DNA of 62,340 nucleotides, filler included, from Rhabdomonas costata (lineage: Eukaryota), in assembly GCA_019059605.1 (NCBI GenBank). It is 31 parts of 31 records of this genome, joined end to end, with 100 filler letters (N's around TTAATTAATTAA, not from the genome) between each part and the next. Parts side by side here need not be neighbours in the genome. Positions count along the whole stretch, not along the records: positions 12,077 to 13,991 come from JAHMHO010007433.1; 30 more parts are not named here. One strand, written 5' to 3'. Made by a program: the position numbers and the translations under genes. The notes beneath the pieces are model-generated. The model was not told where the DNA came from. It did not search any database and worked only from the letters and a program-made list of their open reading frames with translations. Positions within the stretch are counted from its first letter, which is position 1. Each line of letters begins with the position of its first letter. Positions 12,077 to 32,110 of this stretch are shown here, one piece after another.

Positions 12077-13156
12077 GGGTGGTGTGCTTGCAGCGACGCG
12101 GCCGTCTTTCGGCCTGTCGGTCGAAGTGCATTGTTGACAACCCGATAAGGCGCTTGTCGAGTGGAATCTTCCTCCCCCGCGGTCCACCACCGGCACGTCG
12201 CAACTGCAAGCACATCGCTGGGGTACCGTTCCTGGGCCCACGCCAGGCAGTCCTGAGAGAACAGTAGGGCATTCACACTGCCCGCACTGATCAGCCCGTT
12301 GGCAGCTATGAGAAGGGCATCGGGCTCATTCAGAACGTCCATGTACTTCTCCAGCATCGCTCGGTAGGACTGCTCCCAGGCCGCATCTCGGGACACCGTG
12401 GCGCCGAACGCCATCTCCAGAGCATCTAGGAAGAAGAGGATGAGACGCACGTGCGCAAAGGTGAAAGGGGAGCGGGGGCAAGGTGAGCAAAACCCCCGTG
12501 AAGAACAATATCAGGTCAAGGGGTTAGGTGGTGGTGAAAGTCAAGGGGGACAAAGGCACATAAAAATAAGACATACAAACCTAAGGAGGGCAGAACCAGC
12601 CTGCGCTTTTTCTTTCGCTTGAAGTACACGACCAGCATGAAAGCTGCGATGATCGCCACTCCAACAGCGACAGAAATGACAATTGTCGTGGCTGATGAAT
12701 CGGAACCTATGCACGTCAGTGGGAGCGAACGGGAAATTAGGGTGCTGCGCTTTCGGTTTTGAATAACCGCATCAAATTTATCGCTTGGCTGAAAAAGGTA
12801 ATGTTTGACGATAAGTAAAATTACACAAGTTTGCATAAATGCCTGTTCGTTTTCCAAGAAGCCGACGCCTCACAACAATGCTGAATGCGAAAACGGCACC
12901 ACTTCAGCGGAAACCCTTTCCAGTGAAAATGAATTCGAAACAGTCCGCTTCCCCGGTCTACAAACACAGCAGAGAAGCCGAGTACCTTGAGTCGAGTCAC
13001 AACGATGGGTGTTGCAGGGGGACCGCAATGTGGTTCCATTGGCAGAGTGGCACGCGTATGCCGTGGTTGGGTCGGTGACGAGAAATGTAGCAATGTAGAA
13101 GCCTGTGCCGCAGCTCGCAGAGCACGTCCCATTGTAGAAGGACCCTCCACAAGCGG
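12077..13156 (-). CDS. Single-pass receptor-like protein: TSP1-like Cys-rich module, TM helix, N-terminal part of an ADP-ribosyltransferase-like domain (partial)
   Basis: Exons 13156-12986 (CSASCGTG...PCNTHRC), 12706-12581 (IVISVAVGVAIIAAFMLVVYF then KRKKKRR), 12425-12077. Both joins are phase-1 GT-AG and in frame. The last exon is 40/92 identical, ungapped (manual count), to 43564-44164. Confidence 0.75.
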
Positions 13157-16100
13157 CTGTGTGGTAAGATGGGATAACATCCACAAAAAAAGACAAGCAA
13201 CGATGAGCGATGAGATGCTGAACAAGTGCACCCAGTGTGCAAAGCAACGATAGGCACAGGAATTAAATTAGCGGGCTTCTGGCTGACTAACGCCATCCCG
13301 AAGTCATCTGTACAGTGCTGCCCTCGCGACAGAAGGTTGCGCGTACGAGGCACCGAATTAAACGACTGGAAACCTCAGCAAAACGCCCGGTGCTCTCCGA
13401 ACACATAGATAGCCGTCGACAACTTCACATCTCCGCAGCTCGAACGGATCGGCGTGACGTTCGGTGAGACTTTCAAGTGCTGTTCAACACGAAAAGGCCG
13501 CCCAACGACGCAAAGCGAACCAAAATTGTAACGAAATCATAGAAACAGCAGGCGACAGAAAACACCCCAGTTCTCCCTCTGCCCACCTCTCCGTATATCC
13601 TGTATTCCTAGATTATTGTCCCAGCGCTATCCCTGGATTTTCCTAGATACTCGCCGCGTCATCCATCCTTGCCTTCCTCGTGGTGGATCATCGTTGGTAG
13701 GAGTTTCTCCGAGCAACACTTTTTCAATTTAGAACTGCATCTAGTGCATATAGCTCTGTTTCGTCGTTTGCACTGGCTGGCAACAACCTCGAATGCTAGA
13801 ACCCCGCGTGAACGGACATGTTCCTATCAATACAAAACATGCCTGTGCAGGGCGTCCGCGTGAATGGACATGCCTTCGTTATTACCAACAAATAACAGAA
13901 CGCCATACCAAACATACCGGTGCAGGGCGTCCCAACCCATGGAGGAAGGTTCAACAGGCACGCCCACGGGTTGCCACCCAGCTCCAGGCTGNNNNNNNNN
14001 NNNNNNNNNNNNNNNNNNNNNNNNNNNNNNNNNNNTTAATTAATTAANNNNNNNNNNNNNNNNNNNNNNNNNNNNNNNNNNNNNNNNNNNNTGTGGTGGG
14101 TGTGGTTGGTTTTTGGGGTGTCGGCACTAAAACCTGATTGCAGTGGGGGGGGGGACAGAATTGGATAAATTCCGTGCAAACCCCGTGAAAAAGAGTTGAC
14201 GGTGGTGGAAGAACTGAGTTCGCAGACTAAATGGTTGGTTGTGATGGTGGGGTGACTTTTTGCACATCTCAGCTCTCTCTCTCTCTCTTTCTCTTTCCTG
14301 TTGGCCAAGAACTTCAGAATGGCGACGACCCGGTTTGTCCACTCGCCGTACTCTTTCGAGGGTATGCACTCCGCTACCTCGCTACCATGGCCGCATACTA
14401 AACGCACACATTTGCGCAGATACACAACCGCACACTCACACGCACCAGCGTTTGGATCAACGTAACTCTTGAACCGAAGGTCTCGTCATATAGCATGGTT
14501 TTCAGACAAAAAGTTGGGCTTTTCATCACCCGTCCTTCATTTTTGTCTTGGTCAGCCTCCAAGTAGTTCGTGAGACAACGAAGTAGCGAAAATCGGACGA
14601 GTGGAAAAGCATTTCTTTAGGAGCGAAGCCCGGCCAGAGTGGGCGGCCGGGCATTTTAGAACCCTTAGAAAACCATTTAATAAGAAAAAGGGCTTCAGGT
14701 AAAAAAGACGCCATCCCCCGTCTCTCTTATGAGCAAGGGTGCCGGAGACTCCAAAAATAATCGTATCCTGTTGTGCATTCCCTTTCAGTATCGTCTTGGA
14801 TGTGGTGCAGTTTCCTAGGGGGTTACTTCTGCTATCCTTTCTTTTTGTTTGCAGGGATGACTGCTCTCCCAGGATTTATTCCACCTCTGCCGCTGAGCCT
14901 ACCTCCGCCTGCCTCGCCACAACAGCAGGGACCAAGGCACATCAATCCCCCCCTCTCTCAATCCAGTTCAATGGTTAACCTAACCGTTGCGTTTATTCTT
15001 GTTGCACCTTCATCCGGAAGTATCCTTATCACTCGTTTGTGACCCTCTGCGGTGCAGAGTTTTTACGGGGGAACTCGAGCAGCCTCACCAGTGGCCAGGC
15101 CTGCCCGGGGGTGTGGGTGACATCCATTCCAGCCGTGCTGCGGAAATGACTGCCTCCGCCCTGCCGTCCACGCTCCTTCCGGATGCAGTGGATCTCGCCC
15201 GTGGCCTCTCTACACTGCCCCCGCCTGGCAAAGGTCTGAGCGCCCTGGTGCTCGTCTTCTTCGCCTTCCCATGTGCTTGAGGGTGCGCCCTTCTTTGCGG
15301 CTGCCCTGTTTAGGGTGGTGTTATTCTCATATTATTTTCATTTTTATTATCGGGTGATCTCAAAGTAAGAGGTGGGAGGTGGGACATAAAGAACAGGCCG
15401 AGAAAAGGAAAGGAAAAACACCTCCAGGTAAAAACCAGTTTTTTGACCACCTCCTGCCTCATGTAGTGTGCACCTTTTCGGTTGTTTAGGTGACTCAGAC
15501 AATATTACCTGTGTCGCACCGCCCAGACCAATTTTGGTGATGAAGGCTGTCCGAATGTCCGGATATGAGTTTGGGTCGTTGTAGCGCGAATCACGCACAC
15601 GTGATGTGGCCGCCAGCAGAAGGGCTGCACCTGCGCGCTACGTCGGGTCAGTGTGCAAACGCACGGAAGGGGTATGTGGAGATCCGAACTTACTGGGCTC
15701 CTCTTGAAAGGCGAACATTGATGCATACAGAAGTTGAATAGCGGTGGTAATCGCTGTTGGTGAGATAGTTTAAGCCACCTCCTGGTTGCAGATGGCTTAG
15801 AAAATATAGCCATTCCCATGGTGCTACCAAGTTACGTGGGTCATCCAGGGAGGCTCTGTTCTGGGACTGGATCGATTCATATTTCCCCTAGCAATAGGAC
15901 TGGTTTCGCGTGCCCTTCTGTTGTTTTCATGATATCGGTGATCGGGTATATGTGCAGAGGCAGTACAAGCTCCAACTTCACCTTCTCCACCTTTATCCCC
16001 TGCAGNNNNNNNNNNNNNNNNNNNNNNNNNNNNNNNNNNNNNNNNNNNNTTAATTAATTAANNNNNNNNNNNNNNNNNNNNNNNNNNNNNNNNNNNNNNN

Positions 16101-31920: not shown

Positions 31921-32110
31921 TTTGGGCCCCGTGGTTCTCCTTCTCTCTAGCTCATTCGGGCCCGGAAGGGCCTTGGTAAAGACGAAGTCGAAGGCAACAA
32001 ACGAGGTGTTCATCAAAAGGGTGCACAGCGTACCACAGAGCACGAAGAACAGCACAGCCAACGATTAAAAGGGAACCGCTGTGACATTAAAATTCCCGCG
32101 CCGGTCCCAC
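31921..32110 (+). repeat. Dispersed repeat family A, copy 1 (other copy at 39798-39960)
   Basis: Shared colinear blocks: cattcgggcccggaagggcc, aaagacRaagtc, gtgcacagcgt, agcacagccaa, cgccgg. Confidence 0.8.

What the first reader, a model, noticed from the sequence alone, without database searches (positions are those of the whole stretch)
12077..13156. Second receptor-ART paralogue with a different (TSP1-like) ectodomain
Seen: an unrelated contig carries the same cytoplasmic region (40/92 ungapped identities, shared LAVATCRWWT, EPDAL, RDxAWE) behind its own TM plus KRKKKRR exon. The membrane-proximal module differs: CSASCGTG...PCNTHRC, thrombospondin type 1-like without WxxW. Inference: two paralogues in 31 contigs selected only by length suggest a much expanded family with a conserved effector and variable sensors.
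Basis: partly seen in the sequence, partly recalled or inferred. Interest (0 to 1): 0.8.

Follow-up and report, generated by a model that had tools for sequence, protein, structure and literature searches.

The report
Euglenid LRR receptor with ADP-ribosyltransferase tail
This short contig carries four exons of a single-pass membrane protein, probably from the euglenid Rhabdomonas costata, with a leucine-rich-repeat exterior, a small cysteine-rich stalk and an ADP-ribosyltransferase-fold domain inside the cell, a receptor design I did not find described in print.

Summary
The window is 31 unrelated contigs of about 1.9 kb. The minus strand of contig 12077-13991 carries GT-AG, phase-1 exons for a 6-Cys module, a TM helix followed by KRKKKRR, and a cytoplasmic segment. 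That segment is 43% identical over 95 aa (E 2e-26) to contig 42295-44208.

The ART label is right, but only relatives show it. The window's own fragments hit no Pfam family. Fuller homologues hit PF01129, a family profile finds XopAI, Vis and ART2.2 in the PDB, and a model of the 75%-identical P0004 superposes on ART2.2 at Z 14.4. R / S-x-S / E-x-E is intact in P0004 and P0005. The target contig ends before these residues.

The "different TSP1-like ectodomain" is only partly right. TSP1 HMMs score below threshold. The same module sits in P0005, a Rhabdomonas costata protein with a long LRR ectodomain. I found a further exon at 13918-13991 that matches P0005's LRR cap, so the sensor is LRR-type and the Cys module is its stalk.

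Family size: at least 8 distinct receptor-type sequences plus catalytically degenerate soluble forms. No genome was available for a full count.

The parts
13918..13991 (-). Exon 0 (open at the contig end). It is an LRR C-terminal cap-like segment (..LELGGNPWACLLNLPPWVGTPCT) with donor ACCG|GTATGT, phase 1.
   Evidence: tblastn of the P0005 ectodomain gives 42% identity over 26 aa to P0005 703-728, E 8e-4 against the two contigs; sequence and donor. Joining it to exon 1 restores the spacing PC-x3-C seen in P0005.
13157..13917 (-). Intron 0 (GT..AG). It contains a 28-nt copy (13830-13857, 89% identical) of the exon 0/intron junction (13905-13932).
12986..13156 (-). Exon 1: extracellular 6-Cys juxtamembrane module (CSASCGTG ... 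PCNTHRC) with two N-x-T sequons. TSP1-like in motif only.
   Evidence: frame and splice sites. (48% identical to P0005 module, all 6 Cys conserved). (E 1e-10). (TSP1 matches below threshold).
12707..12985 (-). Intron 1 (GTACTC..CATAG). Its last 57 nt (19 codons) are retained in frame in the transcript-derived protein P0013.
12581..12706 (-). Exon 2: transmembrane helix (TTIVISVAVGVAIIAAFMLVVYF) plus basic stop-transfer KRKKKRR.
   Evidence: (Kyte-Doolittle 19-residue mean 3.04 in P0013). (identical to P0013).
12426..12580 (-). Intron 2 (GTTTGT..TCCTAG).
   Evidence: The junction is confirmed by P0013.
12077..12425 (-). Exon 3 (runs off the contig): the first 116 residues of the cytoplasmic ART-fold domain. 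This is its N-terminal helical subdomain, including LAVATCRWWT. The catalytic R, S-x-S and E-x-E positions lie beyond the contig end.
   Evidence: 76.9% identical over 108 aa to P0004. (helices 11-123 in the P0004 model). (ART2.2 aligns from model residue 3).
42397..42507 (+). Paralogue, juxtamembrane Cys-rich exon (..FACPSSY..RVCSSWSC..DCCE), phase 1 at both ends. It has no detectable similarity to the target's Cys module.
42701..42820 (+). Paralogue, TM exon (ILAITGGTVLGVALLALLGYCYW) plus RCWRRRNIRR.
   Evidence: weak TM_ErbB1 juxtamembrane hit, E 0.0011, below cut-off.
43564..44208 (+). Paralogue, cytoplasmic ART-fold exon (open at the contig end). It includes the R motif (VFRVV) and S-x-S motif (AAS). 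E-x-E lies beyond the contig.

Best explanation
The contig holds four exons of a type I single-pass membrane protein of a euglenid. The organism is Rhabdomonas costata or a very close relative, judged by letter-for-letter identity to a named EukProt protein.

Reading from outside to inside, the protein has: the C-terminal cap of a leucine-rich-repeat ectodomain (the rest of the LRRs lie off the contig), a 6-cysteine glycosylated stalk module, one TM helix, a KRKKKRR stop-transfer, and a cytosolic domain with the fold of cholera-toxin-like (R-S-E, ARTC-type) mono-ADP-ribosyltransferases.

Most likely mechanism (inferred, not shown): ligand binding or clustering at the LRR ectodomain controls the cytosolic ART domain. 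That domain uses cytosolic NAD+ to mono-ADP-ribosylate arginine on itself or on a substrate. This would be a receptor enzyme analogous to LRR receptor kinases, with ADP-ribosylation in place of phosphorylation.

Shown here: gene anatomy, paralogy, topology signals, ART fold, and an intact catalytic triad in the closest full-length relatives.

Inferred: enzymatic activity, arginine specificity, ligand control, and that this particular copy carries an intact catalytic half.
For: Anatomy:
- Canonical GT-AG, phase-1 junctions.
- The TM-to-cytoplasmic junction is identical to transcript-derived P0013.
- The same order, LRR cap then Cys module then TM then ART, occurs in P0005 (RCo018022, 1224 aa). 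P0005 carries LRRNT_2 (E 2.8e-7), LRR_4 (1.1e-13) and LRR_8 (1.8e-11).

Topology:
- P0005 has one strong hydrophobic segment (KD 3.05).
- It has 13 N-x-S/T sequons and 23 Cys outside, against 0 sequons and 7 Cys inside.
- Basic residues directly follow the TM helix.

ART identity:
- 7 of 10 homologues scanned hit PF01129. Four score above the 22.3-bit cut-off (P0006 29.9, P0012 31.6, P0016 27.0, P0017 27.0). P0004 scores 22.1.
- A profile of 16 family sequences finds 12 PDB sequences at E <= 1, of which 11 are ARTs: XopAI 4.8e-6, Vis 3.6e-4, ART2.2 0.039.
- The AF2 model of P0004 has pLDDT 79.3 and pTM 0.76.
- Foldseek gives 29 matches at E <= 0.001, and every listed row is an R-S-E ART.
- VIA-align gives ART2.2 Z 14.4, rmsd 3.5 A, 204 of 223 residues, model range 3-344, so the helical part encoded on the target contig belongs to the ART fold.
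- Atlas feature search agrees: 10 of the 10 best named clusters share the ART families.

Catalytic residues:
- R, S-x-S and E-x-E are all present in P0004, P0005, P0006, P0012, P0016 and P0017.
- The target is 75-77% identical to P0004 over the shared part.
Against: - The target contig ends after 116 residues of the domain, before R, S-x-S and E-x-E. Activity of this copy cannot be judged.
- Its last four codons (..SLQAHH) depart from the family consensus (..SL[DE]LVMP). This may be an intron, an assembly end or damage.
- The window fragments alone match no Pfam family at E <= 10.
- P0004 and P0005 fall just below the Pfam ART cut-off.
- Some family members are catalytically degenerate: P0008 (R to E, E-x-E to G-D-E), P0009 (K-G-M) and P0023 (E-D-K). 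Non-enzymatic roles therefore exist in the family.
- The only transcript-derived protein covering the target (P0013) retains part of intron 1 and begins with a piece of another paralogue. There is no RNA evidence for the exon 0-1-2 junctions.
- No signal peptide is obvious at the N-terminus of P0005.
- No ligand, substrate or activity is known.
Confidence: 0.6

Rival explanations
1. The architecture is the same, but the cytosolic domain acts mainly as an NAD+-consuming effector (NAD+ glycohydrolase or a self-directed toxin-like ART). It would fire when the LRR ectodomain senses a microbe or virus. This is a pattern-recognition receptor analogous to LRR-TM-TIR receptors, not a signalling modifier.
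For: - The best sequence and fold matches are bacterial conflict effectors and toxins: XopAI, HopU1, Vis, C3 and an ART toxin/immunity pair.
- The family is multi-copy and divergent, as immune receptor families tend to be.
- The LRR ectodomain is of the kind used by pattern receptors.
- That R-S-E ARTs commonly show NADase side activity is established knowledge, recalled and not tested here.
Against: - Nothing here separates transfer from hydrolysis.
- E-x-E (rather than other variants) is the arginine-transferase signature (recalled knowledge).
- No immunity or antidote partner, and no ADP-ribosylhydrolase, is seen on these 1.9-kb contigs.
Confidence: 0.2
2. This particular copy is a non-functional or non-catalytic member. 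It could be a pseudogene fragment or a pseudo-enzyme receptor whose ART-like domain only scaffolds.
For: - The catalytic half is not on the contig, and the last four codons diverge from the consensus.
- Degenerate catalytic residues occur in P0008, P0009 and P0023.
- P0013, the only transcript evidence, is partly unspliced and chimeric.
- A duplicated exon/intron junction sits in intron 0.
Against: - All four exons are open and the splice sites are canonical and phase-compatible.
- The spliced TM-cytoplasmic junction occurs in a transcript-derived protein.
- The nearest relative P0004 (75-77% identical) has an intact triad.
Confidence: 0.15
3. It is a surface adhesin rather than a receptor. 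The Cys module would be a true thrombospondin repeat used for attachment, as in TRAP-type adhesins (recalled comparison), with the cytosolic domain acting locally on the cortex.
For: - The CS-x-x-CG-x-G motif and six cysteines are present.
- The only Pfam and PDB domain matches of the module are TSP1 families: TSP1_ADAMTS E 1.3, TSP1_spondin E 0.014, ADAMTS13 repeat E 0.09.
Against: - All matches are below threshold.
- The exon has no tryptophan and no R-x-R layer.
- The model of the module is poor (pLDDT 61.6) and finds no fold match.
- There is one module only, directly above the membrane and below a long LRR region in P0005.
Confidence: 0.05

Closest known systems
Vertebrate ecto-ADP-ribosyltransferases (ARTC family, e.g. 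rat ART2.2, PDB 1GXY; Pfam PF01129)
   Same: Best structural match of the family model: Z 14.4, rmsd 3.5 A, 204 of 223 residues, covering both the N-terminal helices and the beta core. It shares the R / S-x-S / E-x-E arrangement and gives PF01129 hits.
   Different: ARTC enzymes are extracellular, either GPI-anchored or secreted (recalled). Here the domain lies C-terminal to a TM helix and a KRKKKRR stop-transfer, with 0 sequons, so it is cytosolic. The family domain is about 340 residues, with an insert of roughly 90 residues between the S-x-S region and the last strands. Sequence identity is only 18-19%.
Bacterial type III effector ARTs XopAI (6K93/6K94/6KLY) and HopU1 (3U0J)
   Same: Best profile-to-sequence hit in the PDB (XopAI E 4.8e-6). 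Best Foldseek hit (E 2.3e-7). Z 14.2-14.3.
   Different: These are soluble, injected bacterial effectors. They are not intron-containing eukaryotic membrane proteins and have no LRR ectodomain or TM helix.
LRR receptor kinases and receptor-like proteins of plants, and LRR-TM-TIR Toll-like receptors
   Same: Same architectural logic: LRRNT_2 plus LRR ectodomain, one TM helix, basic juxtamembrane stretch and a cytosolic effector domain (P0005).
   Different: The output domain is an ART fold, not a kinase or TIR domain. Common descent of the ectodomains was not tested. The comparison with TIR as an NAD+-using domain is recalled, not tested.
Thrombospondin type 1 repeat (Pfam TSP_1, TSP1_spondin, TSP1_ADAMTS)
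   Same: It has a CS-x-x-CG-x-G motif, six cysteines, and a C-terminal CN-x3-C. The only domain-level matches, in register over the whole model, are TSP1 families.
   Different: Scores are far below the gathering thresholds. There is no W-x-x-W and no arginine layer. The fold was not confirmed.
Receptor-type adenylate cyclases of trypanosomatids (recalled; not searched here)
   Same: Another euglenozoan multigene family of single-pass receptor enzymes with variable ectodomains and a conserved cytosolic catalytic domain.
   Different: Different ectodomain and different catalytic domain. No sequence relationship was tested.

Membership tests
R-S-E (cholera-toxin-like, ARTC) mono-ADP-ribosyltransferases, Pfam PF01129 / PF03496 | Significant match to the family HMM, target fragment itself | tested here: not met
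   0 Pfam families at E <= 10 for 12079-12510, 12079-12438 and the 214-aa paralogue fragment. The HMM matches in relatives fall in the C-terminal E-x-E region, which is not on the contig.
R-S-E (cholera-toxin-like, ARTC) mono-ADP-ribosyltransferases, Pfam PF01129 / PF03496 | Significant match to the family HMM, homologues of the target | tested here: met
   PF01129 scores above the 22.3-bit cut-off in 4 of 10 proteins scanned (29.9, 31.6, 27.0, 27.0). It scores below the cut-off in 3 more (22.1, 19.2, 16.5). The family profile hits XopAI at 4.8e-6 and Vis at 3.6e-4 in the PDB.
R-S-E (cholera-toxin-like, ARTC) mono-ADP-ribosyltransferases, Pfam PF01129 / PF03496 | ART fold (N-terminal helices plus split beta-sandwich NAD+ site) | tested here: met
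   Tested on a model of P0004, which is 75-77% identical to the target over the shared part. pLDDT 79.3. Foldseek gives 29 matches at E <= 0.001, all listed rows ARTs. ART2.2 gives Z 14.4 over model residues 3-344.
R-S-E (cholera-toxin-like, ARTC) mono-ADP-ribosyltransferases, Pfam PF01129 / PF03496 | Catalytic Arg, S-x-S and E-x-E | tested here: inconclusive
   Present in P0004, P0005, P0006, P0012, P0016 and P0017. R and S-x-S are present in the window paralogue. For the target gene the contig ends before all three.
R-S-E (cholera-toxin-like, ARTC) mono-ADP-ribosyltransferases, Pfam PF01129 / PF03496 | NAD+-dependent ADP-ribosyl transfer | not testable with these tools
   Needs an enzyme assay.
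Vertebrate-type ecto-ARTs (ARTC1-5) | Extracellular catalytic domain (GPI-anchored or secreted) | tested here: not met
   The domain follows the TM helix and KRKKKRR. It has 0 N-x-S/T sequons in the domain against 13 in the ectodomain of P0005.
Thrombospondin type 1 repeat | HMM match above the gathering score | tested here: not met
   TSP1_ADAMTS scores 9.8 bits against 23.8 (E 1.3) for the target exon. TSP1_spondin scores 16.1 against 41 (E 0.014) for the P0005 copy. PF00090 was not reported.
Thrombospondin type 1 repeat | Tryptophan (W-x-x-W) and arginine layers of the CWR core | tested here: not met
   There is no W in the 55-residue exon, and the R-x-R position reads F-Y-I-A-T. What defines the core is recalled knowledge.
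Thrombospondin type 1 repeat | CS-x-x-CG-x-G motif and six conserved cysteines | tested here: met
   CSASCGTG is present, and all 6 Cys are conserved with P0005.
Thrombospondin type 1 repeat | Three-stranded TSR fold | tested here: inconclusive
   The model has pLDDT 61.6 from a 2-sequence alignment. No Foldseek match at E <= 0.001.
LRR receptor-like single-pass membrane proteins | LRR ectodomain | tested here: inconclusive
   Clear in P0005 (LRRNT_2, LRR_4, LRR_8). On the target contig there is only a 26-residue cap-like exon, 42% identical to P0005 703-728, E 8e-4.
LRR receptor-like single-pass membrane proteins | Single TM helix with positive-inside flank | tested here: met
   Exon 12581-12706. 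KD 3.04 followed by KRKKKRR.

The most novel reading that the evidence does not exclude
Euglenids possess a large, lineage-specific family of cell-surface LRR receptors whose intracellular output is arginine mono-ADP-ribosylation. This would be a transmembrane signalling or immune chemistry not described for any receptor class. The family also includes soluble, catalytically dead paralogues that could act as regulators. Two members among 31 random 1.9-kb contigs would then reflect hundreds of copies.
Probability: 0.3. Interest if true: 0.8.

Novelty: new variant of a known kind. Interest (0 to 1): 0.62.

Why it matters
Receptor enzymes are known with kinase, phosphatase, cyclase and TIR outputs. 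A receptor whose cytosolic output is a cholera-toxin-type ADP-ribosyltransferase would add a new chemistry to transmembrane signalling.

It would also be a cytosolic use of the ARTC fold in a eukaryote. As far as I recall, that fold is otherwise known in eukaryotes mainly from extracellular enzymes.

The family is testable. The cytosolic domain of P0004 is encoded in one reading frame on its contig, the catalytic triad is intact in several members, and natural dead variants exist as controls.

For this finding specifically, the value is that it fixes the architecture on genomic DNA: cap, Cys module, TM and ART exons all lie on one contig. It also corrects the ectodomain reading.

Tried and rejected
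- Word-index searches:
  - P0001 'near' found 1 protein among 239 candidates.
  - P0005 residues 760-1224 found only itself among 8000 scored candidates.
  - P0004 'shorter' found 12 of 473 candidates.
  - The 204-647 aa range was never searched with P0004, so all counts are lower bounds.
- Metagenome scan: the first alignment had no conserved stretch. A narrower one gave 2 short loci out of 420 pattern matches, both covering only the C-terminal region, so they say nothing about TM exons.
- Cys module fold: the AF2 model is poor (pLDDT 61.6). Foldseek found nothing at E <= 0.001. I did not interpret it.
- PDB by sequence with P0001 alone gave only chance-level TIMP-1 rows at E about 1. I rejected these.
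- P0014 in the representative search (11 short stretches, RGS_DHEX hit) looks like a low-complexity match and was left out of all alignments and counts.
- Literature:
  - 'ADP-ribosyltransferase' + 'euglen' + 'transmembrane' + 'leucine-rich repeat' gave 0 papers.
  - 'ADP-ribosyltransferase' + 'euglen' gave 11 papers, none on such receptors judging by title or abstract.
  - Two broader searches and passages of PMC3417536 gave no receptor-ART.
  - In the R. costata paper PMC8219788, the terms ADP-ribos, leucine-rich and receptor occur 0 times in the main text (find mode only).
  - Its supplementary tables were not seen and may list these proteins.
  - One review I wanted (guessed PMC id) is not held.
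- Earlier scan notes: nothing on this genome, sequence or topic.
Full report
**What the window is.** The window is 31 separate contigs of 1906-1933 bp joined by N spacers. The finding lies on contig 12077-13991. No whole genome is held for the window.

**Checking the observation.**
- The minus strand carries the features described.
- The cytoplasmic frame matches one other place in the window, 43587-43871 on the + strand. The match is 43.2% identical over 95 residues without gaps, E 2.2e-26, and all other hits have E >= 0.8.
- In an all-against-all tblastx of the 31 contigs, only 2 of 465 pairs reach E <= 1e-5. These are this pair (112 bits) and a weak c16/c20 pair (41 bits).

**Gene model.**
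- The exons are bounded by canonical sites, and every junction is phase 1.
- The exons are:
  - Exon 1, the Cys module, 13156-12986.
  - Exon 2, the TM helix plus KRKKKRR, 12706-12581.
  - Exon 3, the cytoplasmic domain, from 12425 to the contig end at 12077.
- The exon 2/3 junction is confirmed by database protein P0013. Its residues 79-201 equal the spliced exons exactly.
- P0013 is a transcriptome-derived protein of Rhabdomonas costata in EukProt, so the organism is that euglenid or a very close relative.
- The published description of that species reports an intron-rich, highly fragmented draft with mostly GT-AG introns (PMC8219788, passages only). This fits the contig.
- P0013 is not a clean model. 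It retains the last 19 codons of intron 1, and it starts with the TM end and first 40 or so residues of another paralogue. I take it to be a partly spliced or chimeric transcript assembly.

**A fourth exon.**
- tblastn of the ectodomain of P0005 against the contig finds a segment at the far end of the contig, 13990-13913. It is 42% identical to P0005 residues 703-728, E 8e-4 against the two contigs.
- It ends at a good donor (ACCG|GTATGT, last exon base 13918).
- Joining it in phase 1 to exon 1 reproduces the P-C-x3-C spacing of P0005.
- In P0005 this segment is the cap that closes the last leucine-rich repeat.

**What the cytoplasmic domain is.**
- The window fragments hit no Pfam family, even at E <= 10.
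- An exhaustive HMMER search of 1.84 billion representatives with the paralogue fragment P0001 found 15 proteins at E <= 0.001: 11 at <= 1e-10 and 2 at <= 1e-30.
- Of 10 of these scanned against Pfam, 7 hit PF01129 (NAD:arginine ADP-ribosyltransferase). Four score above the 22.3-bit cut-off. P0004 scores 22.1 and P0005 19.2.
- A profile of 16 family sequences found 12 PDB sequences at E <= 1, and 11 of them are ADP-ribosyltransferases. The best are XopAI (4.8e-6), Vis (3.6e-4) and ART2.2 (0.039).
- P0004 is a 370-residue protein covering the whole domain. It is 75% to 76.9% identical to the target over the shared part.
- Its AlphaFold2 model has pLDDT 79.3 and pTM 0.76.
- Foldseek gave 29 PDB matches at E <= 0.001. 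Every listed row is an R-S-E type transferase: XopAI, Certhrax, Vis, C3, HopU1, ExoS/T, ART2.2, Vip2.
- VIA-align gave ART2.2 Z 14.4, rmsd 3.5 A, 204 of 223 residues over model residues 3-344. HopU1 gave 14.3 and XopAI 14.2.
- The 116 residues on the target contig are therefore the N-terminal helical subdomain of the ART fold, not a separate domain.
- Two language-model searches agree as leads only.

**Catalytic residues.**
- The Arg, S-x-S and E-x-E positions are all present in P0004, P0005, P0006, P0012, P0016 and P0017.
- The window paralogue shows Arg and A-A-S, and its contig ends before E-x-E.
- The target contig ends before all three.
- P0008 (Arg to Glu, G-D-E), P0009 (K-G-M) and P0023 (E-D-K) are degenerate.
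- That E-x-E marks arginine specificity is established knowledge recalled here. It was not tested.

**Topology.**
- P0005 has one strong hydrophobic segment (Kyte-Doolittle 3.05). A second window at 1.92 is the conserved hydrophobic helix of the ART domain, which is also present in soluble members.
- P0005 has 13 N-x-S/T sequons and 23 Cys before the TM helix, and 0 sequons and 7 Cys after it.
- Basic residues follow the TM helix directly.
- The target shows the same signs: two N-x-T sequons and six Cys in exon 1, then KRKKKRR after the TM helix.
- The ART domain is therefore cytosolic, unlike vertebrate ecto-ARTs (the latter point is recalled).

**The Cys module.**
- It is 48% identical to the module of P0005, with all six Cys conserved (E 1e-10).
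- Against Pfam, the target exon gives only TSP1_ADAMTS at E 1.3 (9.8 bits, cut-off 23.8). The P0005 copy gives only TSP1_spondin at E 0.014 (16.1 bits, cut-off 41).
- A two-sequence profile against the PDB gives the ADAMTS13 repeat at E 0.09 and thrombospondin-1 at E about 4. A chance cytochrome oxidase hit ranks above them.
- The exon has no tryptophan and no R-x-R.
- Its model is poor (pLDDT 61.6) and finds no fold match.
- The module is TSP1-like in motif and cysteine pattern, but membership is not shown.
- It is not the sensor. In P0005 it sits directly above the membrane and below about 700 residues of LRRs (LRRNT_2 E 2.8e-7, LRR_4 1.1e-13, LRR_8 1.8e-11).

**The other paralogue.**
- Its exons are 42397-42507, 42701-42820 and 43564-44208, again all phase 1. 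The last intron is at the same position, 12 codons before RD.AWE.
- Its juxtamembrane exon shows no detectable similarity to the target's module.
- By eye, its F-x-CP ... C-x4-C pattern resembles the LRR cap pattern of P0005 and of exon 0. This is a weak, untested impression.
- If it is right, both paralogues have LRR ectodomains and differ in whether the TSP1-like stalk is present.

**Family size and make-up.**
- Eight members carry R. costata names: P0005, P0008, P0009, P0013, P0015, P0016, P0020 and P0025.
- The others come from unnamed ENA, JGI and Logan contigs.
- In my alignment, the number of sequences covering at least 60% of each region is:
  - 13 in the N-terminal region, which is 11 distinct after two identical pairs.
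  - 17 in the middle region, which is 16 distinct.
  - 14 in the C-terminal region.
- I defined the receptor-type group by closeness to P0004. It has:
  - 8 distinct sequences in the middle region (P0001, P0004, P0005, P0010, P0011, P0019, P0020, P0021), with all pairs at most 84% identical.
  - 8 in the C-terminal region (P0004, P0005, P0022-P0027), with the top pair 94% identical.
- The target may be the same gene as P0011 or P0020, whose N-termini are unknown, so the floor is 8.
- Of the 7 genes with sequence upstream of the domain:
  - 4 have a TM helix: the target, the window paralogue, P0005, and the N-terminal piece of P0013.
  - 3 have none: P0008, P0009 and P0018/P0007.
- These counts are lower bounds, as set out under Tried and rejected.

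**A sampling argument (inference).**
- If the genome is about 107 Mb, like the published draft of that species, the window samples about 0.055% of it.
- With 20 genes, the chance of catching two ART N-terminal exons would be about 6e-5. With 500 genes it would be about 0.03.
- This favours a large family. It is weakened by post-hoc selection and by not knowing how the contigs were chosen.

**Mechanism.**
- I commit to a ligand-controlled receptor enzyme. The LRR ectodomain senses, the Cys module acts as a stalk, and the cytosolic ART domain mono-ADP-ribosylates arginine using cytosolic NAD+.
- The anatomy, topology signals and fold are shown. Activity, specificity and control are inferred.
- Rivals, and my confidence in each:
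  - An NAD+-consuming immune effector, analogous to TIR: 0.2.
  - A dead or pseudogene copy: 0.15.
  - A TSR adhesin: 0.05.

**Novelty.**
- None of my four literature searches, nor the two papers I opened in find mode, describe a receptor with an ART output.
- Supplements were closed, and one review I wanted was not held.
- I class this as a new variant of known kinds (the ART fold and LRR receptors) in a new combination and cellular location.

Noticed in passing
window 13830-13857 and 13905-13932: A 28-nt direct repeat, 89% identical and 75 nt apart. The exon 0/intron 0 junction is copied inside the intron, and in the copy the donor GT reads GC. A second short repeat (13804-13820 and 13856-13872, 94% identical) lies beside it.
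   Followed up: partly
P0013 (RCo025796), against window 12426-12770: This transcript-derived protein begins with the TM end and first 40 or so residues of a different paralogue (RRRKKRR type). It continues through 19 codons of the target's intron 1 and then the correctly spliced TM and ART exons. It is either a chimeric transcript assembly or a partly processed RNA. It also reveals one more TM-bearing paralogue.
   Followed up: partly
P0008, P0009, P0018/P0007, P0015, P0016 (database proteins, five of six named R. costata): A soluble branch of the family without a TM helix. In P0008, P0009 and P0018 a short conserved helix motif (..AE.AL.WG.L..) lies about 40-60 residues upstream of the ART-like domain, and P0008 repeats motif and domain twice. 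P0008 and P0009 have lost catalytic residues. They are possible regulatory pseudo-enzymes.
   Followed up: partly
window 12077-12090 (minus strand, last codons before the contig end): The target's last four codons (..QAHH) leave the family consensus (..[DE]LVMP) with no GT donor in sight. This could be a non-conventional euglenid intron, an assembly end artefact or damage to this copy.
   Followed up: no
P0019 and P0027 (both on an unnamed contig of 4870 bp), P0021, P0011: Several paralogues run into non-coding sequence inside the ART domain at different places. This suggests introns within the domain that P0004 and the window paralogue lack, so intron positions appear to vary among copies.
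   Followed up: no
window 31926-32107 (c16) and 39808-39958 (c20): The only other similarity between contigs of the window: 184 nt at 67% identity (blastn E 2.5e-15; tblastx 41 bits). It is possibly a dispersed repeat.
   Followed up: no
L001 59-289 and L002 105-251 (metagenome contigs): Two environmental contigs encode the C-terminal E-x-E region of family relatives (35% and 42% identity). The family therefore exists outside the named species, but the contigs are too short to show architecture.
   Followed up: no
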